From positions 62,162 through 126,161 of the forward strand of contig JAFGIP010000051.1 in assembly GCA_016929525.1 (NCBI GenBank): a stretch of DNA of 64,000 nt, in the 5' to 3' direction. Each line of letters begins with the position of its first letter. Positions within the stretch are counted from its first letter, which is position 1. Below, piece by piece: positions 10,269 through 38,391 of this stretch. The notes below the pieces were generated by a model. That model worked only from the letters and a program-made list of their open reading frames with translations. It ran no database searches and was not told the DNA's origin. The stretch is from Bacteroidales bacterium. GTDB lineage: Bacteria > Bacteroidota > Bacteroidia > Bacteroidales > UBA10428. Made by a program: the position numbers and the translations under genes.

Positions 10269-11435
10269 TCAATATTCAAATACACCATGTTCGCCCTTTA
10301 TAGTAAGTCTCTTGCCACTCCATTTTTCAACCCTGCCAATAATTTGTGCATCGACATTAAATTCTTTAGAGATGTTAATAATGGTTTGAGCGTATTGTTC
10401 CGGTAAATAAATCTCAAACCTGTGTCCCATATTAAAGACTTCGTACATTTCCTGCCAGGTAGTTTCCGATTGTTCTTGTATTAATCTGAAAAGTAAAGGG
10501 GTAGGTAAAAGGTTATCTTTAATGATATGAAGGTTGTTAACAAATTTCATGACCTTGGTTTGTGCACCTCCGGAACAATGAATCATACCGTGGATTTTTG
10601 GTCGTAATTCTTTTAATACCGGTATAATTATGGGTGCATAGGTTCGGGTCGGAGATAATGCTAATTTTCCAATATCAACTATTGATTCCGGGACTATATC
10701 TGTAAGGCCATAACGCCCGGTGTAAACCAACGATGAAGGAATAAGGTCGTCGTAACTTTCCGGATATTTGTTTGCAAGATGATTATAGAATAAATCATGT
10801 CGAGCAGAAGTCAAACCATTACTGCCGATGCCGCTATTATATTCACTTTCATACGTGGCTTGTCCGTATGATGCGAGTCCAACAATCACATCTCCCGGTT
10901 GAATATTATTTTCTACAATTTCTTTTCGCTTTATTCTACTTGCTACCGTTGAGTCGACAACTATTGTGCGCACCAGATCACCAATGTCGGCCGTCTCACC
11001 CCCTGTAAGAAATATTTTCACTCCGAAACTGTTCAGATGAGTTATTAGTTCGTCGAACCCTCTCAGGATATGCATAATTACTTCACCGGGGATTTTTAAT
11101 TTATTTCTGCCTATCGTAGACGAAAGCAAAATATTATCAATTACACCAACACAAAGTAGATCATCAATATTCATAACAATGGCGTCTTGAGCAATACCTT
11201 TCCAAACCGATAAATCACGTGTTTCACGCCAATACATATATGCTAATGATGATTTTGTACCCGCACCGTCGGCATGCATAACTGTACAATATGAAGGATC
11301 GCCTGTAAAGAAATCGGGAAGAATTTTGCAGAATGCATTAGGGAATAATCCTTTGTCAAAATCTTCAACTGCCTTGTGTACATCTTCTTTCTGGGTAGAA
11401 ACGCCTCTCAAACTGTACCTTGTAGCTTCACTCAT
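10269..11435 (-). CDS. purM: AIR synthase-related protein (PurM-like phosphoribosylformylglycinamidine cyclo-ligase, Bacteroidota long form)
   Basis: 388 aa. ADGAGTKS and GGETAD motifs and the HCSGGAQTK C-terminal domain signature. Confidence 0.75.
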   Translation of the reverse strand: MSEATRYSLRGVSTQKEDVHKAVEDFDKGLFPNAFCKILPDFFTGDPSYCTVMHADGAGTKSSLAYMYWRETRDLSVWKGIAQDAIVMNIDDLLCVGVIDNILLSSTIGRNKLKIPGEVIMHILRGFDELITHLNSFGVKIFLTGGETADIGDLVRTIVVDSTVASRIKRKEIVENNIQPGDVIVGLASYGQATYESEYNSGIGSNGLTSARHDLFYNHLANKYPESYDDLIPSSLVYTGRYGLTDIVPESIVDIGKLALSPTRTYAPIIIPVLKELRPKIHGMIHCSGGAQTKVMKFVNNLHIIKDNLLPTPLLFRLIQEQSETTWQEMYEVFNMGHRFEIYLPEQYAQTIINISKEFNVDAQIIGRVEKWSGKRLTIKGEHGVFEY

Positions 11436-11454
11436 TTCATGAATTTTTGTGTTG

Positions 11455-11462
11455 CAAAATTA
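11455..11462 (-). promoter_or_regulatory. Bacteroidota -7 promoter box for purM-prfA
   Basis: CAAAatTA on the + strand (TAatTTTG on -), 20 nt upstream of the ATG at 11435. Confidence 0.45.
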
Positions 11463-11596
11463 TAAATAAATATGAAACCCACGTTTATTGTAAAAACAAA
11501 GGCGGTTGTTTGAAAACTGTGGTTTAATTTATCTGACAAATTATTTGGAGCGAGAATTTTATTTTTGAATAATTAAGGTTAACAACTTGAGAAGAA

Positions 11597-11639
11597 CAAA
11601 AAAAGGGAATAGATACTCCCAAATCCATTCCCTTTTTTC
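11597..11639. terminator. Rho-independent terminator after folE
   Basis: aagggaat (11603-11610) pairs with attccctt (11627-11634). An A-run lies 5' and a T-run 3', giving a U-run on either strand. Confidence 0.7.
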
Positions 11640-11656
11640 GAATGTAATTTACTAAT

Positions 11657-12370
11657 CTACTTTGTCTTATTTAAATATGAAAAGAATTCATTCCGGTATT
11701 CTTTGTCTTTGAATTTACCATGAAAGCTACTGGAGGTAGTTGAACTTCCATGATCTTTAATACCTCTCATTGCGACACACATATGCTCTGCCTCAATTAT
11801 TACTGCAACATCTTCCGTTTTAAGTGCATTTTTAAGTTCTTCGGCAATTTGTTCTGTAAGCCGTTCCTGCAACTGTGGTCTTCGGGAATAATAATCCACT
11901 ATCCTGTTAATTTTGGATAAACCAATTACATATCCGTTTGAAATGTATGCCACATGAGCCTTTCCGAGAATTGGTACAAAATGATGTTCGCAGTAAGAAT
12001 GAACTTTAATATCTTTCTCTACAAGCATCTGATTATAGTTGTACTTATTTTCGAATAGTGTTGCTTTTGGTTTATTTTTGGGATTCAAACCACTGAAAAT
12101 TTCATTAACATACATTTTTGCAACCCTGTTGGGTGTTTCCTGCAGGCTGTCGTCGGTTATATCTAAACCGAGTGCATCCATTATTTTTTCAAAATGCCAT
12201 GCAATTTTTTTAATTTTAGCATCGTTATCCGGCTCAAACAGCGGTTCTTCATTAAATTGTGTTTCACGATTAATGGAATTCTCAGTGTTGCCGACAACAC
12301 GCAAAAAATCTTTATATATTTCTTCCGATTTGTTTGTGTTAATTTTTGCTGTATTATCTTGAACTTTCAC
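11657..12370 (-). CDS. folE: GTP cyclohydrolase I
   Basis: 237 aa. Zinc and active-site motifs [12 protein letters not shown] and [11 protein letters not shown]. Confidence 0.93.
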
Positions 12371-12414
12371 TTTTCAAAATTAGATTGAGTTAATAATAAT
12401 GAGGCTGCACGATT

Positions 12415-12957
12415 TTAATTAAGATCATAATCCTTGAGTTTCTCCATAAGCTTTTTCCGGGTAAAAAATATTCGACTCTTTACAGTTCCGATCTTCAAAT
12501 TCAGTTTATCTGCAATTTCTTTATATTTATAACCCTGAGTATGCATCATAAAAGGTAATCTGAATTCATCACTTAATTCATTAATGCTTTTTTGTATCTC
12601 TTTAACAGAGTAATGTGAATCAGGAGATTCAAATGCTGATTCTTTATTGATGTTCAGATAATAAAGATCGTCAGTATTATCAAATGTTGTATTTGCCTTT
12701 ACATTACGTCTGTAATTATTAATAAATGTATTCTTCATTATTGTAAATGTCCAGGCTTTTAAATTTGTGTTTTCTTCAAATTTATCTCTGTAGGTAATTG
12801 CCTTTGCAAAAGTTTCCTGTAATAAATCCTTGGCATCTTCCAGGTTCGAGGTAAGACTCAAGGCAAATCTTTCAAGGTTACTTGAAAGATTAGTTAATTG
12901 GTAATTAAATTCTATTGCTGTCATAACTGTTCGAATTTGAGGTTTACCTGATTTCAT
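12415..12957 (-). CDS. ECF-type RNA polymerase sigma-70 family factor
   Basis: 180 aa. Region 2 (LLQETFAKAITYRDKF...NLKAWTFTIMKNTFINNYRR) and a region 4 HTH (GYKYKEIADKLNLKIGTVKSRIFFTRKKL). No anti-sigma gene is adjacent. Confidence 0.85.
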   Translation of the reverse strand: MKSGKPQIRTVMTAIEFNYQLTNLSSNLERFALSLTSNLEDAKDLLQETFAKAITYRDKFEENTNLKAWTFTIMKNTFINNYRRNVKANTTFDNTDDLYYLNINKESAFESPDSHYSVKEIQKSINELSDEFRLPFMMHTQGYKYKEIADKLNLKIGTVKSRIFFTRKKLMEKLKDYDLN

Positions 12958-12961
12958 TAAA

Positions 12962-12991
12962 TGTTTAACAAAAATATTGATAAGTTAAACA
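12962..12991. promoter_or_regulatory. Operator-like palindrome R1 (TGTTTAAC-N14-GTTAAACA) abutting the sigma factor start
   Basis: Perfect 8-bp inverted arms at 12962-12969 and 12984-12991. It lies 5 nt upstream of the ATG at 12957 and overlaps the candidate -7 box at 12969-12976. Confidence 0.5.
12969..12976 (-). promoter_or_regulatory. Candidate -7 promoter box for the ECF sigma gene
   Basis: CAAAaaTA on the + strand (TAttTTTG on -). It is only 12 nt from the ATG, implying a near-leaderless transcript if used. Confidence 0.3.
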
Positions 12992-13142
12992 CTAAACAAA
13001 TTCAGAACCTGCGTACACACCTTAATTTAAGGCTTATTATAAATAATAATAATATTCGAAAAAGTCTTTAATAAAGGATTACAAAACAATTAAATAGATT
13101 TATTCTAAATAAGATATAAATTACAATAAAATCTTTAACAAA

Positions 13143-13172
13143 TGTTTAACATATAATTAGAAAAGTTAAACA
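13143..13172. promoter_or_regulatory. Operator-like palindrome R2 (TGTTTAAC-N14-GTTAAACA), second copy
   Basis: Same perfect arms at 13143-13150 and 13165-13172 with the same 14-nt spacing, 181 bp from R1. Both copies share the flank aATGTTTAACA...AAGTTAAACA. Confidence 0.5.
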
Positions 13173-13308
13173 ATAAATTATGAATTTGCTGATAATCCAG
13201 TGCTATAGACCTGAATTTCTGCTTATTTTGAAGTATGTGAGTAATATCAACTACAAATTAATTGCAGCTAAGTTTAATAGTCAGGGTTTAATAAATTTAG
13301 TATAGTAA

Positions 13309-14199
13309 TTAAAGAGAATCGATATAGTTGAGTTCAGAAATCAAAATTTTGGGAGATCCGATAAATTTAATATTTGTGAAACCTGAACACAAATCTCTGA
13401 GTTTATTCTGACCGGTGATATATATAGATTTATCAGGGAATATTTTTGAAAGTCTTTCGAGATAATTCAAAGCTTCTTCATCGCTTAATGTAACTATAAA
13501 AGATAAATACAGATAATGACATGAACGAATTTTGTCTACTTCAATAAGGTCGTTAAACGGGACATTTTGGCCCAGATAAATTACCCGGTGTCCTCTTTTT
13601 CTGATCAGATAACTGGCAAACAGTAGCCCAAGTTCATGCATTTCACCTTCTGGCAGGAACAATAAAAAATTTTTAGTGTTTGGAGATTCACTTGAAAGCT
13701 GGCTATCGATGGCTACCAGCATTTTCTGGCGAATCAGGTTTGAAACGAAGTGTTCCTGTGCAGGATTGATTGTCCCTGTTTGCCACATGATACCAATTCG
13801 CATGAAGAATGGATTCAGCACTTTAATAACTGTATCTTCAAATCCTAACTGAATTATTGTTCTTGAAAGAATCCGTTCAAACTTGTTCTCGTCGAGATCG
13901 ATCATAGCAATAGCTAAGTTTTCGATCTGTGTCTCGGTATCTGTTAAATTTTCGGTTAACCTGCTTATGTTAGTAGTTATTTCATCATTTGTCAAATTAG
14001 CAATCTTAGAGATCTTGAATCCGTTTTTATTTAATATGGAAATATTTAGTAGTTTTTTAAGCTCCGCATCACAATATGTGCGAATATTTGTTGAAGTCCT
14101 TTCAGGCTCTATCAAACCATATCTTTTTTCCCAAATACGTATTGTGTGTGCTTTTATACCTGAAAGCTTTTCAAGATCTTTAATTGTATAATTTGCCAT
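13309..14199 (-). CDS. MerR-family regulator with C-terminal cobalamin-binding domain (CarH/LitR-like)
   Basis: N-terminal MerR HTH YTIKDLEKLSGIKAHTIRIWEKRYGL. Helical bundle with W-x9-EH (WQTGTINPAQEH). Rossmann B12 motif E-x-H-x-x-G (EMHELG) followed by RVIYLGQNVP. Start placed at MANYTIKD (14199); the ORF extends to 14223. Confidence 0.85.
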   Translation of the reverse strand: MANYTIKDLEKLSGIKAHTIRIWEKRYGLIEPERTSTNIRTYCDAELKKLLNISILNKNGFKISKIANLTNDEITTNISRLTENLTDTETQIENLAIAMIDLDENKFERILSRTIIQLGFEDTVIKVLNPFFMRIGIMWQTGTINPAQEHFVSNLIRQKMLVAIDSQLSSESPNTKNFLLFLPEGEMHELGLLFASYLIRKRGHRVIYLGQNVPFNDLIEVDKIRSCHYLYLSFIVTLSDEEALNYLERLSKIFPDKSIYITGQNKLRDLCSGFTNIKFIGSPKILISELNYIDSL

Positions 14200-14325
14200 T
14201 AGTTTAAATTTAATAATTAACAATAGTCTTTTTAGAAAGTTGGAGACTTTACTATTGTTACGGCAAGAATATTTGTTACATTATAGCATCTTATTCTCAA
14301 ACAAAAGAAATGAATATATTGTTTA

Positions 14326-14973
14326 TTATGAACTTTTTTTTCTTATCAGGTTTAAACCATCGCGTATTGGTAAGATAACGTTTTCTACCCTTCGATCATT
14401 TTTGATATGGTTATTGAAATTTATTATTCCCCTGGTTTCTTTATCTGCGTTGTCAGAACCTTTTATCACTTTACCGTCCCATAAAACATTATCAGCAATA
14501 ACATAACCTCCATTCCTGACTTTATCAATAACCACTTCATAATATTCTACATAATCTTTTTTTTCTCCGTCAATAAAAATAAGGTCGTATAAATTTTCAA
14601 GTCCCGGAATAATTTGTAACGCATCACCAACTATAATATTTACTGACCCTTCCAAGCCTGCTTTATGAATATATTTTTCCGCCAGGTGGATTATTTCATC
14701 ATTAATTTCAATGGTTGTTAATTTACCTCCTTTATCAAGTCCTTTTGCCATACAGATAGCTGAATAACCTGTAAATGTGCCTATTTCAAGAATATTTTTT
14801 GGACGTATCATCCTTGATATTATCTCCAGGAATTTACCCTGTAAATGTCCGGACAGCATCCTGGGGTACAAGGCTTTCAGATGAGTTTCACGGCTGAGTT
14901 CTTTCAGCAACTTGTCTTCATCTGAAGAATGAAGTTCTGCATAATCAAGAAGATCAGTGTTAATTTCAGGCAT
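14326..14973 (-). CDS. Class I SAM-dependent O-methyltransferase (Methyltransf_3 / caffeoyl-CoA OMT-like)
   Basis: 215 aa. ILEIGTFTGYSAICMA SAM motif, FIDGEKKDY, and GGYVIADNVLWDG. Confidence 0.85.
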   Translation of the reverse strand: MPEINTDLLDYAELHSSDEDKLLKELSRETHLKALYPRMLSGHLQGKFLEIISRMIRPKNILEIGTFTGYSAICMAKGLDKGGKLTTIEINDEIIHLAEKYIHKAGLEGSVNIIVGDALQIIPGLENLYDLIFIDGEKKDYVEYYEVVIDKVRNGGYVIADNVLWDGKVIKGSDNADKETRGIINFNNHIKNDRRVENVILPIRDGLNLIRKKSS

Positions 14974-14981
14974 AACAGATT

Positions 14982-16208
14982 TTATTCATAAATGAGATAT
15001 GATAAACAATCCGGATTAAAGATCTCATTTGTGACATCTCTTATCTGTTTTGCAGAGATAGCCTCAATTTTGTTATTTATCTCGGAAAGTGACTCTATTC
15101 TATTATATAGTAAAAGGCTTCTTCCGTTTGAAATCATCTGTGATTCATTACTTTCTGCTCCGATAGCAATTTGCCCTATTAATTGTCTCTTAGCTCTTGC
15201 TAATTGTACCGTACCTAATAACTTTTGTCGTAAAATCTTAAGCTCTCCGTGAGTTAGTTTAATACATTTATCCACATCAATTTTATTGGTGCCGAAATAT
15301 ATATTTATAATTCCGGTATCGCTATAAGTCGTATAATTTGATTCAACATTATATGCTAATCCTTTTCGTTCTCTCAGGTTCATATTTAGTCTTGAATTCA
15401 TTCCAGGACCTCCTAATAAGTTATTGAGAAGGTGTAAAGCATATCGTTTTTCACTGAGGTTGCCAAAAGCCTGATTACCAATTATACAATGTGCCTGGTA
15501 AGTGTTTTTAACACTCTTCTTTTTTATTGGTGAATATTTTGAGAGATCATATTGCTGCCTTGGTATTTTCCTTTTTTTTTCGGAAATATCAGAGAAGTAT
15601 TTCTCAAAATAAACAACAATTATTTTTAGCGATACATTGCCTACACTAGAAACAATCATCTCGTTAGTGGGGTAATTATCCTGGTAAAATTTTAAAAGAT
15701 CGTTTCTGCCATAACTATTTAAACTTTTTTCAGTGCCAAGTATATTACGCGCAACAGGATTACCTTTAAAAATAATCTCTTCAAAATCGTCGTAAAGTTG
15801 CTCATAAGGTGAATCTTTGTATGAGTTTATCTCATCCAGAATTACTACTTTTTCTTTGAAAATTTCCCGATCGGGGAATACCGAATTGAATATCATATCT
15901 GATATCAGTTCAAAAGCTCTGTCATAATAATTATTGAAAAAGGAAACCTGTATGCACGTTTCTTCTTTGGTTGTATATGCGTTTATTTCACCACCTACAT
16001 CTTCCATGCGACTCAGTATATGGTGAGCTTTTCTTTTATTTGTCCCCTTAAAAATGAGATGCTCTATAAAGTGTGCCATTCCAAGCTGAGAATCGCTTTC
16101 GTCTCTGGCCCCTGTATTTATAATAATTCCACAGTGCGCAACAGGTGATAGAGACGGTTTATGAATCAGCTTTATTCCGTTTTTTAATTTATGAATATAA
16201 TACTCCAT
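14982..16208 (-). CDS. M16 family zinc peptidase (insulinase-like)
   Basis: 408 aa. Inverted zinc motif HxxEH in GMAHFIEHLIFKGT. Confidence 0.85.
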   Translation of the reverse strand: MEYYIHKLKNGIKLIHKPSLSPVAHCGIIINTGARDESDSQLGMAHFIEHLIFKGTNKRKAHHILSRMEDVGGEINAYTTKEETCIQVSFFNNYYDRAFELISDMIFNSVFPDREIFKEKVVILDEINSYKDSPYEQLYDDFEEIIFKGNPVARNILGTEKSLNSYGRNDLLKFYQDNYPTNEMIVSSVGNVSLKIIVVYFEKYFSDISEKKRKIPRQQYDLSKYSPIKKKSVKNTYQAHCIIGNQAFGNLSEKRYALHLLNNLLGGPGMNSRLNMNLRERKGLAYNVESNYTTYSDTGIINIYFGTNKIDVDKCIKLTHGELKILRQKLLGTVQLARAKRQLIGQIAIGAESNESQMISNGRSLLLYNRIESLSEINNKIEAISAKQIRDVTNEIFNPDCLSYLIYE

Positions 16209-16820: not shown

Positions 16821-19800
16821 ATGAAGTATTCATATCATATTATTACATGTTTATTTTTTCTGTTATTTGGAATTATATTATATGGGCAAAATTCATATAC
16901 ATTAAAATCACTAACAAAAAAAGAAGGATTATCATCAATAACTGTTTATACTATAATTAAGGACAAAAATGGATTTGTATGGATAGGCTCGGCTGACGGT
17001 CTTAACAAGTTTGATGGTCAAAAGGTATCCCGATATTTTTATGATCCCGGCAAAAAAACAAGCATATCATCTAATATTATTGAAAGGTTATACATTGACA
17101 GTAGTGGTCGTTTTTGGGTTGGCACTTTTGATAAATTACATCTTTATGATTACCATAAGGATGAGTTTATTGAAATAACAGACATACAGAAAGTTGAGAT
17201 CAAAAATAAAATAAGACATGTTCATACCATTGCTGAAGATGACGAAGGTTATCTATGGTTAGGTACACGTAATGGGTTATATAAACTTTGTGTAAGTTCT
17301 TCAAACAATATAGAAATTACAGATAAAACATACCTTATTAAAAGAAATGATATTGACAATGATAACTATGTGCGACAGGTCTTAATTGATAAAAACAATC
17401 AGTTATGGGTTGGAATAAAATACGGGAACAAAGGCGTTGTGCGAATTGATTTAAACGATAGCAGTGCTTACTTTTATTCCAATGACCCTAATAATATAAA
17501 CAGCCTTTCGAACAATGAAATAAGATATATGGATATAGCCGATGATGGAACACTTTATGTTGAAACAGCTGACGGTCTTAATTATTATAATGATTCACAA
17601 AACCAGTTTAAAAGAATTAAAACTTCTTCCGATTTTCAATATCATAAACTTATTATGTCTGTTCGCACCGGCGTTCATGAAGATATTAGCTCTTTGTTTG
17701 ACAAAAACAGAGAACTCATAATAAATAATTCTTTGGAATATTTGGAATCCAGTATTAATAATGAGATAACAAAGCAATTTTATTCAAGTATTAATAAAAA
17801 AGAAATTCTGACAGGATACGCAGATAATAAAGGAAATATTTGGTATGGGACATTATATAATGGAGTATACTATTTATGTAGAAATAATTTTGGGTTTAAG
17901 ACTTTCTCAAATTGCTCACAGGTTGAGCTAAATCAGATGGTAAGATCACTTTCCAATGATGAATCAACAAATACAATATGGTTTTCTGCTTATGACGAAA
18001 TTTATGAATACAGGAGAAACTCCGATCAATTAATCAGATACTCTTACAAATCAGGTAATAATCCTTTTAATTTAAATGAAGATGATGTGATTGGGGCAAT
18101 TTTCCTTGATTCCAGGAAAAAACTTTATATAGGATATAATGACGGCTTACTGATATATAATACCATTAGTAGAAAATTAGAACGTAAACTGGCATATTTA
18201 AATAACGATTTCAAAAGTTCCGCCACGGTGCCTGGTAATCAATTTCAATGTTTTTTTGAGACTTCGGATAACTTAATCTATATCGGATATTATGGTAAGT
18301 CAATTTCTACTTACAATCAGATAACAGGTGAGTTAGTGCACTATAATAATATTTATCCTGAAATACTTAACAGCTCAGTATTTTCGATCCTGGAATCCGA
18401 AAAGCGCGTTATCTGGTTAGGAACAAGTCATGGTGTAGTTAAAATTGATTTCAACAATCACGAAGCTACCAAATTCAGATTTGACCCGATGAATATAATT
18501 AAAAGCATTGTTATTGATCAAAAGCAAAGAATTTGGGCAGGGGGTAACGGTCTTTTATATTTAAATAAGATTACTCAGGAGTTCGAATATGACACCGTTG
18601 TTGAAACTAAATATAATATAAGGAATATTTTAGCTCAGAATAATGCTCTTTGGTTATCGACACAGTTAGGACTTATTAAATATCTGCCGGATAGCGCAAG
18701 CTATATATTGTATTCAGTTGAACATGGTATCCGGAGTGAAGATCTGTTTAGTTCTATTGGAGGACTTTCGCAAAATGGAGAATATATTATCGGGAGCGAT
18801 AAGGGATTAACAATGTTTTTTCCAGACAGTGTTATAACACAATCTGATTTTCCTGAAATAAGATTAAAAGAATGTTATATAAATAATGTTGTAATGAACA
18901 TTGGGCAGGAACTGAACGGGCAAGTTATTTTAACAGAATCTATTATTAATACCGACAGGATAGACCTTAATTATAAAAACAATTCATTTTCATTTGAATT
19001 TTCAGCCATTGAGTTTTTAACACCCGATAAAATACTGTTTAAGTATAAACTTGAAGGGTTTGACAATATTTGGATCGACGTTGAAGAGGGATCAAATAAA
19101 GTAGTATACACAAATATTCCACCAGGTGAATATAAACTATTAATAGTTTCAACGAATACTTTAGGTCAGTGGAATAAAACTCCGTTTGAACTGGAACTGA
19201 ATATTGCATTTCCATTTTGGCAAACATGGTGGTTCAGAGTCTTGGTAGTAATCATTATTATACTAATTATTAACACTATAATTCGTTTGCGATTAAGATT
19301 TTTCAAGGAGAATGAGAAGATACTTAAAAACAAAGTTCATGAACGGACCCTTGAATTGGAAGAGAACCAAATAGAAATAATTGCACAAAAAGAAGAATTA
19401 GAGAGACAACGAGATGCACTGAATGAATTAAACAAGAAGCTTGAAGAACAAAACCGCGAAATCATTCAACATAGAAATCACCTTGAAGATATAGTTGAAA
19501 ATCGCACAAAAGAACTGATTCAGGCTAAAGTAAAGGCCGAAGAGAGTGACAGATTAAAATCGATGTTCTTGGCAAATATGAGTCACGAGATACGGACACC
19601 AATGAATGCCATTTTAGGTTTCTCAAGCTTGCTTAATAAACCTGACATAACAGAAAGGGAAAAAATAACTTTTATAAATTATATTAATACAAATGGAGAG
19701 TCTTTACTTAGGTTGATTGAAGATATAATCGATATTTCGCAAATTCAGACACACCAGCTTAAATTCAATATACAAAGCTTTGTAATCGACGATCTTCTTC

Positions 19801-20672
19801 AGCAATTATATCAGCAATATAAGTATACAGCGGATGAAAAGGGCATTCAGCTTCAATTAAAAATTCCTGATAAAAAAACGATCATATATAGCGATATCAC
19901 CCGGTTAAAACAAATTATCAATAACCTTTTATCTAACGCATTTAAGTTTACTGATAAAGGCTCTGTCAGTTTTGGATACAGGCAGGATACCAATAATACA
20001 ATTGAATTCTTTGTACAGGATACAGGTATTGGTATTGCCGAAGATATTATTGATGAAATCTTTAATAAATTTATTAAAGATGAACGGAGCATGTTAAAGA
20101 AATATCGGGGTAATGGATTAGGTTTATCAATCAGTAAGAGTCTTGTTGAACTGATGGGAGGGAAAATTTGGGTTCAAAGTAAATTTGGCAGTGGCAGTAC
20201 ATTTTACTTCTGTATTCCTGTAAGAACAAATCTAAACGAAGTAAAAATTTCTGATGAAAGTTATAAAGAGCTGTCTAATGAAAAACCTTATTTAGGAGGT
20301 AAAAAAGTATTAATTGTTGAAGATGAAGAGGCCAATAGAAGGTTGCTTATGATATTTATGAAAGATACCAGCTCTGAAGTTATTGTGGCAGAAAACGGGA
20401 AAGAAGCTGTCGATATTGTCGAAAAATACCAGGGAAATATAAATATTATTTTAATGGATATAAAAATGCCTGTAATGGATGGAATTACAGCTTTAAAACA
20501 TATAAAGAAAAAATATAAACACATACCTATAATTGCCCAGACTGCATTTGTTCAGGAGCATGAAAAACAAAGGTTTTTATCTGAAGGATTTATTGATTTA
20601 ATTACAAAGCCTATTAACCGCAGTGTGTTATATAATACAGTTCAGTATCATATTAGTGATAAGAAGAACTAA
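16821..20672 (+). CDS. Hybrid sensor histidine kinase/response regulator with periplasmic beta-propeller (Reg_prop) and Y_Y_Y domains, no DNA-binding output
   Basis: 1283 aa. Signal peptide; repeated G.W.GT..GL propeller blades; Y_Y_Y region (FKYKLEGFDNIWIDV); TM helix; coiled coil; HisKA H-box (FLANMSHEIRTPMNAI); HATPase N/G boxes; C-terminal REC (VLIVEDEEANR...MDIKMPVMDG). The ORF ends after REC. Confidence 0.9.
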   Translation: MKYSYHIITCLFFLLFGIILYGQNSYTLKSLTKKEGLSSITVYTIIKDKNGFVWIGSADGLNKFDGQKVSRYFYDPGKKTSISSNIIERLYIDSSGRFWVGTFDKLHLYDYHKDEFIEITDIQKVEIKNKIRHVHTIAEDDEGYLWLGTRNGLYKLCVSSSNNIEITDKTYLIKRNDIDNDNYVRQVLIDKNNQLWVGIKYGNKGVVRIDLNDSSAYFYSNDPNNINSLSNNEIRYMDIADDGTLYVETADGLNYYNDSQNQFKRIKTSSDFQYHKLIMSVRTGVHEDISSLFDKNRELIINNSLEYLESSINNEITKQFYSSINKKEILTGYADNKGNIWYGTLYNGVYYLCRNNFGFKTFSNCSQVELNQMVRSLSNDESTNTIWFSAYDEIYEYRRNSDQLIRYSYKSGNNPFNLNEDDVIGAIFLDSRKKLYIGYNDGLLIYNTISRKLERKLAYLNNDFKSSATVPGNQFQCFFETSDNLIYIGYYGKSISTYNQITGELVHYNNIYPEILNSSVFSILESEKRVIWLGTSHGVVKIDFNNHEATKFRFDPMNIIKSIVIDQKQRIWAGGNGLLYLNKITQEFEYDTVVETKYNIRNILAQNNALWLSTQLGLIKYLPDSASYILYSVEHGIRSEDLFSSIGGLSQNGEYIIGSDKGLTMFFPDSVITQSDFPEIRLKECYINNVVMNIGQELNGQVILTESIINTDRIDLNYKNNSFSFEFSAIEFLTPDKILFKYKLEGFDNIWIDVEEGSNKVVYTNIPPGEYKLLIVSTNTLGQWNKTPFELELNIAFPFWQTWWFRVLVVIIIILIINTIIRLRLRFFKENEKILKNKVHERTLELEENQIEIIAQKEELERQRDALNELNKKLEEQNREIIQHRNHLEDIVENRTKELIQAKVKAEESDRLKSMFLANMSHEIRTPMNAILGFSSLLNKPDITEREKITFINYINTNGESLLRLIEDIIDISQIQTHQLKFNIQSFVIDDLLQQLYQQYKYTADEKGIQLQLKIPDKKTIIYSDITRLKQIINNLLSNAFKFTDKGSVSFGYRQDTNNTIEFFVQDTGIGIAEDIIDEIFNKFIKDERSMLKKYRGNGLGLSISKSLVELMGGKIWVQSKFGSGSTFYFCIPVRTNLNEVKISDESYKELSNEKPYLGGKKVLIVEDEEANRRLLMIFMKDTSSEVIVAENGKEAVDIVEKYQGNINIILMDIKMPVMDGITALKHIKKKYKHIPIIAQTAFVQEHEKQRFLSEGFIDLITKPINRSVLYNTVQYHISDKKN

Positions 20673-23992: not shown

Positions 23993-26479
23993 TTAAAATC
24001 CAATATCTTCTCCACCGAAGCCATTTTCATCACCTCTCCGATCTGGTTCGGGACGTTTTTTCTTTTGGTTAAGTCGATACATAAAAGTTAGCATATAGGT
24101 GCGTTCTGACCGACGCCATTCACCTTCAGAATAAATATTTGGTTCATCAAGCACATATCGGTATTTTCTGCTGTTCAGAACATCGCGAATATTAAATGTC
24201 AGAGTTCCTTTATTTTTCAGGATATCCCGACTGATAGCCAAATCAAGCATATACATTGCCTTCCTTTTTCCCTGCGTAGTTTCACTGGGTGCTCGATAAC
24301 GATAAATTGCCTGTAAATCGAAAAGTTTCCTGAAACGCATTTTAGAATTAAGACGTGTGTTCCACGAGTAGTAATCGCTTTCGCGCTCTACGCCTTCAGT
24401 AGTACCATTCGTTTGGGATCGGTAGTAGTTAATGTCACTTGTAAATGTCCACCATTTAAACGGATTCAAAGTTAAATTCGATTCAATACCATAAGATATC
24501 CTTCTGTCCAAATTATACGGGATCTGGATTGAGATATCCAAACTGTCAAAATATGTTGTAATACGATCAATAACTCCTTTTGTGTCCCTTAAATAGAGGC
24601 CCGCATAAAAGTTTATGTAGTCTTGTTTAAATATATAACCTGCCTCATATGAATTAGTGTATTCAGGCTCTAAGAATGGATTTCCAGTTCTTATGTTCTT
24701 TGGATCGGTATAACTGTAAAAAGGATTGAGTAACCAAAAATGCGGTCGGTTTATTCGTCTGCTATAACTAAGCTGAACTGCATGCTTTGGATTAAACTCA
24801 TATGTTGTATGAACAGTCGGAAAGAGATTAAAATACAGGTCATCATTTGCACTTTCTGCTACTGGTAGTATTGTAAATATACTATCGTTCGATTCGTTTT
24901 GTGAAATCCTGATATCAGAGAGTTCACCTCTTAATCCTACCTGAACTGAAAACTTATTAAACTTGTTACCTGCCTGCATATAAAATGCATGAACATTCTC
25001 GATGTAATTAATATTGTTTGTGTACTCCGGTAAAGTATCCCAGTTACCAATTGTGTTTTTTTCTTCTACAATATAAGGATTGCTGATTTTCCGAAATTCA
25101 CTTCGATAACCTGATTCAAATTTTCCACTTCTGCCCAGTGGTTGGATGTAATCAACCTGTATAAGAAAATTTCTTTCACTTTCTTCGTTTAGTACTCTTT
25201 GAACTAAATCCCATTCACGGATCATTTCATTATCAGGTACATATTCAATACTTTCAGAAATATCAGAATCCTCGGTTTCTTCATCCTCAATATAATGAGA
25301 ATAGATCGTCAGTTTGTGCTCGTCACCGGAGAATATTTTTTCATAATTCAGTGTAAATTCAATATCCAATTCATCTTCCCGTTCTTTATCCTCCCGCAAT
25401 GTTAGATAATCCAAAGTATCTGTAATCGTATAATCTTTATAAGTCAGTTCAGAGAGGTTTAACTGATTGTCGATTCCCAGAATAAATGAACCGGTAATGA
25501 TATTTTTTGAATTAATAAAATAATCCAGTCCTCCCTGTATTCGATTTGATAACCCTGTACGAAGACGATCCTGGTGTATCCGTTTTATGTATGCCGAATC
25601 AGTCAAACCACGTTCCTGGTATCCATAACCACCACCCGGTCTTTCATCATAGCGGACATTATAATTTAAAAAATAATTAATTTTTTCACGGCGAAAATTA
25701 ACATTAGCTCCTAATGAATAGATGTGCGGATATCCTGCTGTTGTTTCAAATGTTCCGTTTACACCTTTCTGCTGTTCTTTTTTCAATACAATATTTATAA
25801 TTCCCCCCATTCCTTCAGCTTCGTATCGTGCACTTGGATTGGTAATAACTTCCACACGATCAACCATTGAAGCCTGTAAATTTTGTAATGCTTCAGAATT
25901 ACCTGCATTGATCATACCCGAAGGTTTTCCATTTATTAGAATTTGAAGGTTGCTACTTCCGCGAAGGCTTACATTACCTTCAAGATCGACACTTACTGAA
26001 GGAATATTGTCTAAAATATCCAATGTAGTCTGTCCTGTATTACTAAGGTCTTTTCCAACGTTGAATACTTTTTTATCTAATGCAATAACCATTTCACTTT
26101 TCTCTGCAACAACTGTTACAGCATCCAGGTCAGTTGCTTCGGGTTTCAGTTCAATGGTTCCCAAATCGACAATTCTGCTTCCACGGCTAACTTCTATATT
26201 GTCTAAGTATTCTTTTTTATAAGAAATAAATTGTATAACGGCATAATATTTACCCGGATCAATATTAATTGAAAATGTACCGTCAGTTCCTGTAATACCT
26301 CCGTTAATTAGTGTCGAGTCAGGTCCAAATACAGAGATAGTAGCAAATTCCAGCGGGATTTGGTTAATATTATCAATCACCTTACCCATAATTTTACCTG
26401 GACCTTCAGGAGCAGGTTGAGCTATTGCACCGGTAAAGATCACGACAATTAGTATTAAAGATATTAGTGATATTTTCAT
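23993..26479 (-). CDS. TonB-dependent-receptor-like outer membrane beta-barrel protein with N-terminal carboxypeptidase-regulatory-like domain
   Basis: 828 aa. Signal peptide; CarbopepD_reg-like GKVIDNINQIPLEFATISV; plug region (LDILDNIPSVSVDLEGNVSLRGSSNLQILINGKP); long barrel ending in a terminal F. No adjacent SusD. Confidence 0.8.
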   Translation of the reverse strand: MKISLISLILIVVIFTGAIAQPAPEGPGKIMGKVIDNINQIPLEFATISVFGPDSTLINGGITGTDGTFSINIDPGKYYAVIQFISYKKEYLDNIEVSRGSRIVDLGTIELKPEATDLDAVTVVAEKSEMVIALDKKVFNVGKDLSNTGQTTLDILDNIPSVSVDLEGNVSLRGSSNLQILINGKPSGMINAGNSEALQNLQASMVDRVEVITNPSARYEAEGMGGIINIVLKKEQQKGVNGTFETTAGYPHIYSLGANVNFRREKINYFLNYNVRYDERPGGGYGYQERGLTDSAYIKRIHQDRLRTGLSNRIQGGLDYFINSKNIITGSFILGIDNQLNLSELTYKDYTITDTLDYLTLREDKEREDELDIEFTLNYEKIFSGDEHKLTIYSHYIEDEETEDSDISESIEYVPDNEMIREWDLVQRVLNEESERNFLIQVDYIQPLGRSGKFESGYRSEFRKISNPYIVEEKNTIGNWDTLPEYTNNINYIENVHAFYMQAGNKFNKFSVQVGLRGELSDIRISQNESNDSIFTILPVAESANDDLYFNLFPTVHTTYEFNPKHAVQLSYSRRINRPHFWLLNPFYSYTDPKNIRTGNPFLEPEYTNSYEAGYIFKQDYINFYAGLYLRDTKGVIDRITTYFDSLDISIQIPYNLDRRISYGIESNLTLNPFKWWTFTSDINYYRSQTNGTTEGVERESDYYSWNTRLNSKMRFRKLFDLQAIYRYRAPSETTQGKRKAMYMLDLAISRDILKNKGTLTFNIRDVLNSRKYRYVLDEPNIYSEGEWRRSERTYMLTFMYRLNQKKKRPEPDRRGDENGFGGEDIGF

Positions 26480-36143: not shown

Positions 36144-38333
36144 ATGGCGATTATTCGATTTCAGGCAGTACACGATGCTAATTCACGTAAACCGAATGAA
36201 ATATCCGGCAAGCAAAATAAGACCTCTGATTATTTTGCAGTAAATGTTTTCGATAAGAGCAAAATGCAAAAGTTCCTTTCCCAGGACGCTTATAGCGGAG
36301 TAATGGAATGTATTGAGAAAGGAATTAAAATTGACAGAAATCTTGCTGATAAAGTTGCTGTAGGAATGAAGTCCTGGGCGCTTGACATGGGGGCTACGCA
36401 TTTCTCACATTGGTTTCATCCATTAACAGACGGAACAGCAGAAAAACATGATGCATTTATTGAGTATAATGAATTTGGCGGAGTGGTAGAAAACTTTTCA
36501 GGGAAGCACCTTGCCCAACAGGAACCTGATGCCAGCAGTTTCCCGAGCGGTGGGATAAGAAATACATTTGAAGCAAGAGGTTATACAGCTTGGGATCCAT
36601 CATCACCTGCATTTATTGTCAGAAATACTTTAAGTATTCCAACAATATTTGTTTCATATACCGGGGAAGCTCTTGATCATAAAACACCATTACTTAAAGC
36701 ACTTCATGCAATCGATAAAGCGGCTGTTGAAGTATGTGAATATTTCGATAAGAATGTATCTAAAGTATTTTCAACTCTTGGTGCCGAGCAGGAATACTTT
36801 CTGGTTGATGAAAGTCTGTATTTTGCACGCCCCGACCTTGTTATGACCGAGAGAACTCTGGTAGGTCATGCTTCTGAAAAAGATCAGCAACTGGATGACC
36901 ATTATTTCTCATCGATACCGGAAAGAGTAGGGGCATTTATGCGTGAATTTGAGACAGAAGCGTACAGGCTGGGAATTCCTCTTCGCACAAGACACAATGA
37001 AGTAGCTCCAAATCAATATGAGGTTGCCCCTATTTATGAGGAATGTAACCTTGCTGTCGATCACAATATTCTTCTTATGGATATCATGAAGAAGATTGCC
37101 AGAAGACATCATTTTATTGTGTTATTTCATGAAAAACCTTTTAAAGGAATTAACGGATCGGGAAAACACAATAACTGGTCGCTGATGACCAATACAGGTG
37201 TTAATCTTTTATCCCCGGGAAATAAACCAAAGTCAAACATGCAATTTCTCAGCTTTCTGGTATGTACATTAAAAGCTGTATATACACACCAGGATCTGCT
37301 AAGGGCAAGCATTGTATCGGCAGGAAACGCTATGCGAATGGGTTCGAATGAAGCTCCACCTTTGATAATGTCGATATTTGTTGGTAACAAAATATCACAA
37401 ATGCTCGATGAACTTGAGGTGAGGGTAACAAATAAAAAGATGACCCCCGACGAGAAAACAGAATTAAAACTTGACGTAGGAAAAATTCCTGAAATTCTTC
37501 TTGATAATACTGACAGGAACCGTACTTCGCCTTTTGCGTTTACGGGTAACCGATTTGAATTCAGGGCAGTTGGTTCTTCCGCCAACTGTGCCTCACCCAT
37601 GACGGTATTGAATACAGCAATTGCTCAACAACTCATCCAATTTAAAAAAGATGTTGATGACCTGATTGAAAAGAATGTTAAAAAGGATGAAGCTATTTTT
37701 CAGGTCATTCGAAAATATATTATTGATTCGAAAAAAGTGAGGTTTGAGGGTAATAGTTATAGCGAAGAATGGCAGAAGGAAGCAAAGAAAAAAGGTCTTA
37801 CTAATGTAACGAATGTTATTGAAGCACTTGATGCATATCTTTCTGCCAAATCAAAAAGACTTTTTAAATCGCTGAAAATACTTAATGAGAAAGAACTGGA
37901 AGGAAGAACCGGTGTACGATACGATAACTATACAAAGAAAATTCAGATTGAATCAAGAGTTATCGGTGATATAGCAATAAGCCAGATTGTGCCAACGGCA
38001 TTAGATTATCAGACAAAACTAATTAAAAATGTAAAAGGTTTAAAAGAGTTATATAGCCAGAATGAATTTAAAGTTTTGGTTGGAGGACGACTGGAACTTA
38101 TAAAGACAGTATCAGGGCATATCACGGCTATTAAATCGAAAGTGCACGATATGACTGAAGCACGAAAAGTTGCAAATAAAATTGAAGATGCACGGGGAAA
38201 AGCGGTCCAGTATTCTGAAACTGTTCTGCAATATCTTGAAGATATCCGAAGTCATATAGATAAACTTGAACAAATAGTTGATAATGAAATGTGGCCCTTA
38301 CCTAAATACAGGGAGCTGCTTTTTAGCAGATGA
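36144..38333 (+). CDS. glnN: Glutamine synthetase type III
   Basis: 729 aa, the size and layout of GSIII. HWFHPLT, EQEYFL, HNEVAPNQYE, NGSGKHNNWS and NRTSPFAFTGNRFEFRAVGSS motifs. Confidence 0.93.
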   Translation: MAIIRFQAVHDANSRKPNEISGKQNKTSDYFAVNVFDKSKMQKFLSQDAYSGVMECIEKGIKIDRNLADKVAVGMKSWALDMGATHFSHWFHPLTDGTAEKHDAFIEYNEFGGVVENFSGKHLAQQEPDASSFPSGGIRNTFEARGYTAWDPSSPAFIVRNTLSIPTIFVSYTGEALDHKTPLLKALHAIDKAAVEVCEYFDKNVSKVFSTLGAEQEYFLVDESLYFARPDLVMTERTLVGHASEKDQQLDDHYFSSIPERVGAFMREFETEAYRLGIPLRTRHNEVAPNQYEVAPIYEECNLAVDHNILLMDIMKKIARRHHFIVLFHEKPFKGINGSGKHNNWSLMTNTGVNLLSPGNKPKSNMQFLSFLVCTLKAVYTHQDLLRASIVSAGNAMRMGSNEAPPLIMSIFVGNKISQMLDELEVRVTNKKMTPDEKTELKLDVGKIPEILLDNTDRNRTSPFAFTGNRFEFRAVGSSANCASPMTVLNTAIAQQLIQFKKDVDDLIEKNVKKDEAIFQVIRKYIIDSKKVRFEGNSYSEEWQKEAKKKGLTNVTNVIEALDAYLSAKSKRLFKSLKILNEKELEGRTGVRYDNYTKKIQIESRVIGDIAISQIVPTALDYQTKLIKNVKGLKELYSQNEFKVLVGGRLELIKTVSGHITAIKSKVHDMTEARKVANKIEDARGKAVQYSETVLQYLEDIRSHIDKLEQIVDNEMWPLPKYRELLFSR

Positions 38334-38341
38334 TTAAAAAT

Positions 38342-38373
38342 AAAAAAAGCTGCAACATTTGATGCAGCTTTTT
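38342..38373. terminator. Bidirectional rho-independent terminator shared by the two glutamine synthetase genes
   Basis: aaaagctgca (38345-38354) pairs with tgcagctttt (38363-38372) around an 8-nt loop. An A-run lies 5' and a T-run 3'. Confidence 0.8.
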
Positions 38374-38391
38374 ATACAGACATATTTAAAT

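What the first reader, a model, noticed from the sequence alone, without database searches (positions are those of the whole stretch)
12415..14223. CarH/LitR-type B12-dependent MerR regulator paired with an ECF sigma factor (LitR-LitS-like module)
Seen in sequence:
- The 297-aa regulator has a MerR HTH.
- It has a helical bundle with an exact W-x9-E-H motif (WQTGTINPAQEH).
- It has a Rossmann domain with ExHxxG (EMHELG).

Established knowledge:
- Wx9EH plus the lower-axial His motif are the signature residues of CarH-type adenosylcobalamin photoreceptor repressors.
- In Streptomyces (LitR/LitS) and Myxococcus (CarH/CarA with CarQ), such regulators act together with an ECF sigma factor to switch on light-induced genes.

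Context and inference:
- The same regulator-then-sigma order occurs here, about 350 bp apart on one strand.
- No carotenoid or photolyase genes are nearby, and no anti-sigma gene is present. The sigma gene is followed after 45 nt by folE.
- The regulon is therefore unknown. In a low-GC Bacteroidota organism that may be anaerobic, the module might sense B12 status rather than light.
Basis: partly seen in the sequence, partly recalled or inferred. Interest (0 to 1): 0.6.

Follow-up and report, generated by a model that had tools for sequence, protein, structure and literature searches.

The report
B12 light-sensor repressor controlling a sigma factor
An uncultured Bacteroidales bacterium carries a vitamin-B12-based light-sensor repressor of a known family (CarH/LitR) next to the alternative sigma factor it most likely switches off in the dark; this is an ordinary pairing across the phylum, found here without the usual pigment genes.

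Summary
The regulator is 13309-14199 on the minus strand (296 aa, not 297). It has a MerR DNA-binding domain, an exact Wx9EH motif and an almost complete B12-binding motif. These align residue for residue with Thermus CarH, and the predicted fold matches CarH first.

The regulator-then-ECF-sigma pair is not peculiar to this window. It recurs in 51 of 80 related Bacteroidota loci. In 13 of them, all aerobic pigmented lineages, carotenoid genes follow directly; photolyase genes lie next to the pair in others.

I found the likely operator, a 30-bp palindrome TGTTTAAC-N14-GTTAAACA. It occurs exactly twice in 64 kb, both times between the two genes. It is conserved across the phylum and follows the regulator. 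Its sigma-proximal copy overlaps a housekeeping-type promoter.

Most likely mechanism (inferred): in the dark the AdoCbl-bound regulator blocks this promoter. Light, or lack of AdoCbl, releases transcription of the sigma gene and of folE, which is probably co-transcribed. The sigma then acts on unlinked genes.

The sigma gene probably starts at 12924 (169 aa). Its regulon is unknown, and no pigment or photolyase gene lies in the window.

Verdict: a new member of a known kind, with an unusual operator design. Moderate interest.

The parts
13309..14199 (-). CarH/LitR-type regulator, 296 aa. It has a MerR wHTH with RIWEKRY at residues 21-27, a four-helix bundle with W139-x9-E149-H150, and a Rossmann B12 domain with E186-x-H188-x2-G-x41-S233-x-I-x27-G263.
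   Evidence: Pfam. NCBIfam CarH model scores 118.7 bits, below its cut-off of 400. phmmer to TtCarH gives E=2e-19 with the motifs aligned. The AF2 model has pLDDT 84. Foldseek top hits are all TtCarH.
12415..12924 (-). ECF sigma factor, probably 169 aa starting at the ATG at 12924. The longest ORF starts at 12957 and gives 180 aa.
   Evidence: Sigma70_r2 and r4_2 domains. TIGR02937 scores above its cut-off. The start ATGACAGC (M-T-A) is conserved in homologues, and the upstream ATG is absent in L001 and L002. The median homologue length is 168 aa. The closest solved relatives are M. tuberculosis SigH and S. coelicolor SigR.
12962..12991 (.). Proximal operator, the palindrome TGTTTAAC-N14-GTTAAACA. 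Its half-site TAAACA fits the CarH TnnACA core.
   Evidence: Exact palindrome; 2 copies in 64 kb against 0.02 expected. It is conserved upstream of the sigma gene in 48 loci. The TnnACA core is taken from PMC9304148.
12969..13000 (-). Predicted housekeeping (sigma-A type) Bacteroidetes promoter of the sigma gene. The -33 TTTG is at 13000-12997, followed by a 20-nt spacer and the -7 box TATTTTTG at 12976-12969. The last G of the -7 box is the first base of the operator's downstream half-site.
   Evidence: Read directly from the sequence. An exact TAnnTTTG overlaps the proximal operator in 35 of 48 loci, in only three registers, against a background of 0.003 per position. The -7 box consensus is from PMC9723704.
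13143..13172 (.). Distal operator, a second exact copy of the palindrome 181 bp upstream of the first. No recognisable promoter overlaps it.
   Evidence: Among loci with the sigma, 34 carry more than one site (>=13/16) upstream of it, 60-200 bp apart wherever spacing was read.
13104..13111 (.). Second conserved element (gene strand CTTATTTAGAAT) between the two operators. Its role is unresolved.
   Evidence: TATTTAG[AT] occurs at 2.3 per kb in regulator-sigma gaps against 0.086 per kb elsewhere in the loci. The block is conserved in the alignment with L001 and L002.
11657..12370 (-). folE (GTP cyclohydrolase I), 44 nt after the sigma gene and probably co-transcribed with it.
   Evidence: Pfam E=5e-67 and NCBIfam above cut-off. 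No terminator lies between sigma and folE. The same order occurs in L001 and L002. An independent sigma-idi-PTPS-folE operon occurs in L021.
11597..11640 (-). Intrinsic-terminator-like hairpin that would end the sigma-folE transcript.
   Evidence: An 18-pair stem followed by a T run.

Best explanation
The regulator is a class I (B12-binding) member of the CarH/LitR family.

Inferred steps:
- In the dark its AdoCbl-bound oligomer occupies two 30-bp palindromic operators in the 350-bp region upstream of the ECF sigma gene.
- The proximal operator overlaps the -7 box and start site of a housekeeping-type promoter, so RNA polymerase is excluded.
- Light breaks the Co-C bond of AdoCbl and releases the repressor. 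Lack of AdoCbl would have the same effect.
- The sigma gene is then transcribed, together with folE, which lies 44 nt downstream with no terminator in between.
- The sigma has no anti-sigma partner, so it is controlled by its own synthesis. It goes on to activate unlinked genes. By analogy with relatives, these are probably photoprotection or repair genes.
- folE would supply pterin or folate, for example the MTHF antenna of photolyases.

Shown here: the domains, motifs and fold; conservation of the gene pair; conservation, position and promoter overlap of the palindrome; and its association with the regulator.

Not shown: B12 binding, the light response, repression itself, co-transcription of folE, and the sigma regulon.
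For: Family membership
- The MerR, B12-binding_2 and Rossmann domains are present. The Wx9EH residues and the axial His align with TtCarH.
- The fold search returns TtCarH as the top 23 hits. The cobalamin-binding domain matches with target TM about 0.8.
- The key residues are invariant in close homologues and kept in 74 of 79 orthologues.

The pair is a functional unit
- The sigma lies directly downstream of the regulator in 51 of 80 loci from many Bacteroidota orders.
- In 13 loci the order is regulator, sigma, crtI, crtB, then idi, lycopene cyclase, crtZ or ispH.
- A photolyase gene lies beside the regulator in L012 and follows the crt genes in L048 and L066; L029 also carries one on its fragmentary locus.

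Operator
- The palindrome is exact and occurs twice only.
- Across the loci there are 154 sites with at least 13 of 16 matches, against about 24 in shuffles. They cluster upstream of the sigma gene.
- The palindrome also occurs where the sigma is absent but the regulator is present: the crtI/regulator divergent gap of L069, upstream of the regulator in L024, L038 and L074, and at the head of fasciclin-regulator units in L033, L050, L067 and L071.
- It is absent near the four Saprospiraceae orthologues (L058, L060, L062, L064) that lost the B12 residues.
- The half-site TAAACA fits the TnnACA core recognised by CarH DNA-binding domains. The recognition helix RxWE(K/R)RY is kept (for the published motifs).

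Repression geometry
- An exact TAnnTTTG -7 box overlaps the proximal operator in 35 of 48 loci, in registers +4, +15 or -6.

folE link
- LitR-dependent light induction of folE is published for Pseudomonas (PMC9758184).
- L021 has a sigma-idi-PTPS-folE operon.
Against: - No experiment of any kind supports the model. B12 binding is inferred.
- The NCBIfam CarH equivalog score (118.7 bits) is far below its cut-off of 400. The Pfam Rossmann B12 domain is below threshold.
- Residues important in TtCarH are not kept. The His after the Trp, which is the light-state upper ligand, is Q here. The Arg-Asp salt bridge of the dimer interface is M...N here. Oligomerisation and the light state may therefore differ.
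- The operator is an inverted pair of hexamers 18 bp apart, not the tandem 11-bp direct repeats of characterised CarH proteins.
- No photoprotective gene is in the window.
- Many relatives come from MAGs whose names suggest dark anoxic sources, such as deep sediment, a 90-m lake layer and digesters.
- folE follows the sigma only in the closest relatives. L005 and L022 lack it there.
Confidence: 0.68

Rival explanations
1. The parts are the same, but the physiological signal is cobalamin supply rather than light. In a permanently dark, anoxic habitat the repressor would be bound when AdoCbl is available and released when it is scarce. The sigma regulon and folE would then respond to B12 status. 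A possible logic is that low B12 stalls methionine synthase and traps folate, so folate synthesis is raised.
For: Apo-CarH does not form the repressing oligomer in characterised homologues (PMC9304148), so derepression without AdoCbl is built into the family. Several relatives are MAGs whose names suggest dark sources. No crt or photolyase gene is in the window. folE is the only metabolic gene in the unit.
Against: Orthologues in the same family are wired to carotenoid and photolyase genes. folE is a documented light-induced LitR target. Nothing in the sequence separates an AdoCbl sensor from a photoreceptor. The habitat and lifestyle of this organism are not known; the only identifier is run SRR13394437. 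The folate-trap logic is my own speculation.
Confidence: 0.17
2. The palindromes are not the regulator's operator. They would be the sigma's own autoregulatory promoter, or the site of another transcription factor. The regulator and sigma would be neighbours without a direct regulatory link.
For: ECF sigmas are often autoregulated. The left half-site ends in AAC, as many ECF -35 boxes do. A second conserved motif (TATTTAGA) shows that other factors may act here.
Against: Both halves are conserved symmetrically as an inverted repeat, unlike -35 and -10 boxes. The site is found with the regulator in loci that lack the sigma. It overlaps a housekeeping-type -7 box in 35 of 48 loci. The half-site fits the CarH TnnACA core.
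Confidence: 0.07
3. The regulator acts as a MerR-type or LitR-type activator of the sigma promoter in the light, as proposed for Streptomyces LitR, rather than as a simple dark repressor.
For: The Streptomyces model has light-converted LitR activating the litS promoter (PMC11519972). The protein has a MerR fold.
Against: MerR-type activation needs the dyad at a fixed place between the two promoter boxes. Here the -7 box sits in three different registers relative to the dyad, and in some loci the site is downstream of the box. That pattern fits steric repression.
Confidence: 0.08

Closest known systems
Thermus thermophilus CarH (TtCarH; PDB 5C8D/5C8E), the structural reference for AdoCbl photoreceptor repressors
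   Same: The three-module architecture matches. Wx9EH and the lower-axial His align exactly. The predicted fold matches best. It is proposed to repress a housekeeping-sigma promoter by occupying an operator that contains TnnACA hexamers.
   Different: Sequence identity is only about 24-26%. The His after the Trp is Q and the Arg-Asp interface pair is M...N here. The operator is two inverted hexamers 18 bp apart, present in two copies 181 bp apart, not three tandem 11-bp repeats. The target is a sigma gene, not crt genes.
Streptomyces LitR-LitS (B12 photoreceptor plus partner ECF sigma)
   Same: The logic is a two-step cascade: a B12-based MerR regulator controls transcription of an adjacent ECF sigma, and the sigma relays the signal (PMC11519972).
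   Different: In Streptomyces litR and litS have bidirectional promoters and LitS drives the neighbouring crtE promoter (GCATCCR-N15-CVGAAD). Here the genes are in tandem, no crt genes are near, and in crt-linked relatives the crt genes are mostly co-transcribed behind the sigma. Whether the two sigmas are related was not tested.
Myxobacterial CarH/CarA operators
   Same: The operator design is plastic. Inverted repeats occur in the M. xanthus operator bound by CarA, and dimeric CarH binds cooperatively (PMC9304148). This gives a precedent for a palindromic, multi-site operator.
   Different: Those operators lie at the crt promoter, and the ECF sigma CarQ belongs to a separate singlet-oxygen pathway.
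Pseudomonas class II LitR regulon
   Same: folE, together with folM and folX, is light-induced through a LitR-family regulator (PMC9758184).
   Different: Class II LitR lacks the Rossmann B12 domain and works with a LOV protein. The regulator here has the full B12 module.

Membership tests
CarH/LitR class I (AdoCbl-dependent photoreceptor repressors) | N-terminal MerR-type winged helix with the RxWERRY recognition motif | tested here: met
   MerR_1 E=1.3e-14. RIWEKRY at residues 21-27 carries one conservative R-to-K change. RIWEKRY is the variant in 46 of the 60 orthologues (of 79) where the motif was detected. The motif definition is from PMC9304148.
CarH/LitR class I (AdoCbl-dependent photoreceptor repressors) | Four-helix bundle carrying an intact Wx9EH motif | tested here: met
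   W139-x9-E149-H150. It aligns with the TtCarH Wx9EH, is invariant in 20 homologues and is present in 74 of 79 orthologues.
CarH/LitR class I (AdoCbl-dependent photoreceptor repressors) | Rossmann module with D/ExHx2G-x41-SxT/V-x22-27-GG | tested here: inconclusive
   The window protein reads E186-x-H188-x2-G-x41-S233-x-I-x27-G263-Q. The spacing is exact, but I replaces T/V and the second G is Q. Pfam PF02310 scores 20.6 bits, below its cut-off of 32.1.
CarH/LitR class I (AdoCbl-dependent photoreceptor repressors) | Overall fold like solved CarH | tested here: met
   The AF2 model has pLDDT 84 and pTM 0.77. The top 23 Foldseek PDB hits are TtCarH. Full-length E is about 1e-13; the cobalamin-binding domain has target TM about 0.8 and rmsd 3.2-3.6 A.
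CarH/LitR class I (AdoCbl-dependent photoreceptor repressors) | NCBIfam equivalog model NF052513 (TransRegCarH) at its curated cut-off | tested here: not met
   It is the best hit, but at 118.7 bits against a cut-off of 400. The protein is a distant subfamily, not an equivalog by that model.
CarH/LitR class I (AdoCbl-dependent photoreceptor repressors) | AdoCbl binding, oligomerisation in the dark and disassembly by light | not testable with these tools
   This needs purified protein. The TtCarH His after the Trp and the Arg-Asp interface pair are absent (Q; M...N).
CarH/LitR class I (AdoCbl-dependent photoreceptor repressors) | Operator of tandem 11-bp direct repeats with TnnACA overlapping a housekeeping promoter | tested here: inconclusive
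   TnnACA (TAAACA) is present and overlaps a -7 box. However, it forms an inverted pair, not tandem repeats. The 11-bp periodicity of related hexamers is only weak.
LitR-LitS type cascade | ECF sigma gene adjacent to, and transcriptionally controlled by, the B12 regulator | tested here: inconclusive
   Adjacency is met and conserved in 51 of 80 loci. Control is inferred only from the overlap of operator and promoter.
LitR-LitS type cascade | The sigma drives carotenoid gene promoters | not testable with these tools
   No crt genes are in the window. In relatives the crt genes mostly sit 3-36 nt behind the sigma, which implies read-through. An ECF-like TGCAAC-N16-CGTTT lies before crtI only in Adhaeribacter.
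ECF (group IV) sigma factors | Only regions 2 and 4 of sigma-70 are present, and the superfamily model is passed | tested here: met
   Sigma70_r2 and r4_2. TIGR02937 scores 78.2 bits against a cut-off of 42.9. No curated subgroup cut-off is reached.
ECF (group IV) sigma factors | A cognate anti-sigma factor encoded alongside (typical but not universal) | tested here: not met
   There is no candidate ORF next to the sigma and no C-terminal extension (169 aa). In relatives the sigma is followed directly by crtI or by unrelated genes.

The most novel reading that the evidence does not exclude
In Bacteroidales of dark, anoxic habitats this CarH-type module has been repurposed from a photoreceptor into an intracellular AdoCbl sensor. 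It would couple B12 supply, through a dedicated ECF sigma, to folate or pterin synthesis (folE) and an unknown regulon. Two palindromic operators 181 bp apart would be bridged by the oligomer. A close synteny relative (L022) has already lost the B12-ligand residues, which would mark ongoing divergence of the sensor.
Probability: 0.15. Interest if true: 0.7.

Novelty: new member of a known kind. Interest (0 to 1): 0.4.

Why it matters
- Within the literature I could search, B12-based photoreceptors have been studied in Thermus, Bacillus, myxobacteria and Streptomyces. I found no experimental work on the very large Bacteroidota branch.
- This locus and its relatives give a concrete, testable operator (TGTTTAAY-N14-RTTAAACA), a promoter model and a partner sigma for that branch.
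- The branch lacks residues that matter in the Thermus protein, so it could broaden the rules for CarH oligomerisation and DNA recognition. It could also offer new parts for light-controlled gene expression.
- The presence of the module in apparently anaerobic, sediment-dwelling Bacteroidales raises an ecological question: what does a light or B12 switch do there?

Tried and rejected
- Riboswitch or other RNA element between the genes or before folE: an Rfam search of 11000-15500 at E<=1 gave only chance hits.
- Extra copies of the operator elsewhere in the window that would reveal the direct regulon: only weak 13/16 matches, at 12941 (overlapping the proximal operator), 19036 (inside a kinase gene) and 20705, consistent with chance.
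- Carotenoid, photolyase, PTPS, fasciclin or DUF4397 genes in the window: none by tblastn or by Pfam scans of ORFs >=120 aa.
- A promoter motif for the ECF sigma: a scan for CAAC-N16-CGT upstream of genes found a convincing, conserved case only in the two Adhaeribacter loci. I could not define a regulon.
- The TATTTAGA motif as tandem 11-bp CarH-type repeats: peaks at 11, 22 and 33 bp are no stronger than peaks at 7, 17 and 25 bp. This is left unresolved.
- The ECF classification paper's supplements, which might assign the sigma to a numbered group, are not held.
- Literature searches for experimental work on CarH in Bacteroidota or Bacteroidetes found none. Takano 2011 is not held.
- The E. 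coli-type promoter scan was uninformative: 15 sites against 15.4 expected. That is as expected for Bacteroidota.
Full report
**What is there**

All genes of the finding lie on the minus strand. The regulator ORF runs 13309..14199 from its ATG and encodes 296 aa. It is identical to an NCBI protein from a 'MAG: Bacteroidales bacterium' on a 139,744-bp contig. The same locus was also found in run SRR13394437.

- Pfam finds a MerR DNA-binding domain, the B12-binding_2 helical bundle and a weak Rossmann B12-binding match.
- The best NCBIfam model is the CarH equivalog. It scores 118.7 bits against a cut-off of 400.
- phmmer against PDB sequences gives T. thermophilus CarH at E=2e-19. WQTGTINPAQEH lies on the CarH Wx9EH and the His of EMHELG lies on the lower-axial His.
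- The classic B12 motif is almost complete: E186-x-H188-x2-G-x41-S233-x-I-x27-G263.
- An AlphaFold2 model (pLDDT 84, pTM 0.77) finds TtCarH structures as its top 23 Foldseek PDB hits.
- The downstream gene is an ECF sigma with regions 2 and 4 only. It passes the ECF superfamily model and no subgroup model.
- Next come folE, 44 nt later, and then a strong terminator-like hairpin at 11640-11597.

**Sigma start codon**

The longest sigma ORF starts at 12957. Homologues start at a conserved ATGACAGC (M-T-A-I-E-F), which corresponds to 12924. L001 and L002 have no ATG at the upstream position. The median length of 51 homologues is 168 aa. I take 12924 as the start, giving 169 aa.

**The pair is a conserved unit of Bacteroidota**

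The regulator family is very large. A scan of GTDB species genomes found at least 599 relatives.

I fetched 80 loci from Bacteroidales, Lentimicrobium, Cytophagales, Chitinophagales, Flavobacteriales and Saprospiraceae.
- In 51 of them the same ECF sigma (44-86% identity) lies directly downstream of the regulator.
- In 13 loci of aerobic lineages the order is regulator, sigma, phytoene desaturase, phytoene synthase, then idi, lycopene cyclase, a hydroxylase-like gene or ispH. These lineages include Pontibacter, Adhaeribacter, Fulvivirga, Chitinophaga, Ohtaekwangia, Marinoscillum, Cyclobacteriaceae and a Flavobacteriales MAG.
- In a fourteenth locus (Chitinophaga L069) crtI-crtB-crtZ lie divergently beside the regulator and no sigma is present.
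- A photolyase gene lies beside the regulator in L012 and after the crt genes in L048 and L066; L029 also carries one on its fragmentary locus.
- A carotenoid-synthesis-family gene precedes the regulator in L039, L065 and L068.

The window's module is thus the orthologue of a carotenoid and photolyase-linked switch. In the window's own clade the synteny is M16 peptidase, O-methyltransferase, regulator, sigma, optionally folE, then purM and prfA. This is seen in L001, L002, L005 and L022 (L004 shows the same order up to the sigma, where its contig ends). No light-related gene is adjacent there.

**The operator**

GTTTAAC-N14-GTTAAAC occurs twice in the 64-kb window, at 12962-12991 and 13143-13172 with flanks, against 0.02 expected. 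Both copies lie in the regulator-sigma gap.
- The same bipartite palindrome, TGTTTAAY-N14-RTTAAACA, is found across the loci. There are 154 sites with at least 13 of 16 matches in 871 kb, against about 24 in shuffles. They cluster upstream of the sigma gene.
- In 34 of the loci with the sigma more than one site lies upstream of it; where I read the spacing, the two main sites are 60-200 bp apart.
- The outer hexamers TGTTTA and TAAACA are the best conserved, and equally so on both sides. This points to a dimeric DNA-binding protein rather than to -35 and -10 boxes.
- The site follows the regulator, not the sigma. It lies in the crtI/regulator divergent gap of Chitinophaga L069, upstream of the regulator in L024, L038 and L074, and at the head of fasciclin-regulator units in L033, L050, L067 and L071. 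All of these loci lack the sigma.
- It also precedes crtZ in the three Pontibacter loci, and a DUF4397/T9SS gene in L034 and L043.
- TAAACA fits the TnnACA core that characterised CarH DNA-binding domains recognise. The recognition motif RxWERRY is kept as RIWEKRY (PMC9304148).

**Promoter overlap**

On the gene strand the proximal region reads TTTG, then 20 nt, then TATTTTTG. The final G of that box is the first base of the downstream half-site. The coordinates are 13000-12997 for the -33 element and 12976-12969 for the -7 box. TAnnTTTG at -12 to -5 is the -7 box of the primary sigma of Bacteroidetes (PMC9723704).

An exact TAnnTTTG overlaps the proximal operator in 35 of 48 loci. It does so in only three registers: +4 in 18 loci, +15 in 12 loci including this window, and -6 in 4 loci. 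The background in these gaps is 0.003 per position. A site that always covers the core promoter, but in different registers, is what a steric repressor needs. It is not what a MerR-type activator needs. This is the basis for the proposed mechanism: dark repression of a housekeeping-type promoter, relieved by light or by lack of AdoCbl.

**folE**

No terminator-like site lies between the sigma gene and folE, and a strong one follows folE. folE follows the sigma in the nearest relatives L001 and L002, but not in L005 or L022. Independently, a Flavobacteriales MAG (L021) has sigma, idi, 6-pyruvoyl-tetrahydropterin synthase and folE in a row. In Pseudomonas putida and P. mendocina, folE is among the LitR-dependent light-induced genes (PMC9758184). 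A light-controlled pterin or folate supply, for example for photolyase antenna chromophores, is therefore a reasonable reading. It is an inference, not a result.

**How this branch differs from characterised CarH**

- In all 74 orthologues with Wx9EH, the residue after the Trp is Q, L, V, M, T or I and never His. In light-exposed TtCarH that His is the upper cobalt ligand.
- The positions of the TtCarH Arg-Asp dimer salt bridge are L/M/Y/W/F and S/N.
- The operator is an inverted pair rather than tandem 11-bp repeats.
- Five orthologues have lost both the EH and the axial His, as in B12-independent CarA-like proteins. They are the four Saprospiraceae loci L058, L060, L062 and L064, and L022, which belongs to the window's own synteny clade.
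- The window protein keeps all ligand residues.

**The sigma and its regulon**

No anti-sigma candidate is present. In relatives the sigma is followed directly by crtI or by unrelated, often convergent genes. Its activity is therefore probably set by transcription.

Among solved structures it is closest to M. tuberculosis SigH and S. coelicolor SigR, which are oxidative-stress sigmas. This is a resemblance only. I could not define its promoter. The one plausible ECF-type promoter, TGCAAC-N16-CGTTT before crtI, is confined to Adhaeribacter. The regulon in this organism remains unknown.

**Light or B12?**

The sequence cannot separate a photoreceptor from a dark AdoCbl sensor. The wiring of orthologues to crt and photolyase genes, and the folE precedents, favour light as the ancestral and most likely cue. 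Several relatives are MAGs whose names suggest dark anoxic sources, and one close relative has lost the ligand residues. These points keep the B12-status reading alive at about 15-17%.

**Comparison and verdict**

The protein is a member of the CarH/LitR family on motifs and fold. It is a distant subfamily by the NCBIfam model. The system works like Streptomyces LitR-LitS, where a B12 regulator controls a partner ECF sigma. It differs in gene orientation, operator design and the absence of nearby crt genes.

JGI already labels homologues 'light-induced transcriptional regulator', so the identity of the protein is not new. I found no experimental study of the Bacteroidota branch in the held literature. 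I rate it a new member of a known kind, with variant features worth testing, and of moderate interest.

Noticed in passing
window 13104-13111, with a weaker copy about 65 nt nearer to the sigma gene (alignment A2, columns 301-314); also L009, L005, L022, L001, L063, L078: A second conserved element, CTTATTTAGAAT, lies in regulator-sigma gaps. TATTTAG[AT] is 27-fold enriched there. In L063 it forms a palindrome (TTATTTAGAACAATTCTAAATAA). In L009 it forms four tandem 11-bp repeats. TATTTA differs by one base from the operator half-site TGTTTA. It could be low-affinity sites of the same regulator, the site of another factor, or an ECF -35-like element.
   Followed up: partly
L022:6004-6891; L058, L060, L062, L064: Five orthologues of the regulator have lost the EH of Wx9EH and the lower-axial His (replaced by Y or Q), like B12-independent CarA. 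L022 has the same synteny as the window and keeps operator-like sites. The four Saprospiraceae loci have no sigma and no palindrome nearby.
   Followed up: partly
L046:7984-8012 and L054:7770-7798: An ECF-type promoter-like sequence TGCAACGTTCG...CCGTTTAAT (AAC-N16-CGT) lies between the sigma gene and crtI in the two Adhaeribacter genomes. It is a candidate target promoter of this sigma family and was not seen in other genera.
   Followed up: partly
L048:10380-10545 and L066:10420-10590: A small conserved ORF (about 55 aa, MFSFLKSDPI...) lies between idi and the photolyase gene in two crt-linked loci. I do not know its function.
   Followed up: no
L034:7687-7810 and L043:7657-7800: Two or three operator-like palindromes lie upstream of a DUF4397 protein with a T9SS sorting tail, just after the sigma gene. 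Fasciclin-domain genes preceded by one palindrome sit before the regulator in sigma-less loci (L033, L050, L067, L071). These may be unrecognised members of the direct regulon.
   Followed up: partly
window 12955-12957: The ATG that gives the longest sigma ORF (180 aa) lies only 5 nt from the operator and is not conserved in L001 or L002. Gene callers that use it, as in the Logan record, probably add 11 residues that are not translated.
   Followed up: yes
window 16821-20672, 23993-26479, 36144-39402, 56098-57111: The rest of the window is ordinary Bacteroidales content. It includes a hybrid two-component sensor with Reg_prop/Y_Y_Y domains, a TonB-dependent receptor, type III and type I-like glutamine synthetases, GldB and several T9SS-tailed proteins. 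Nothing there is linked to light or B12.
   Followed up: yes
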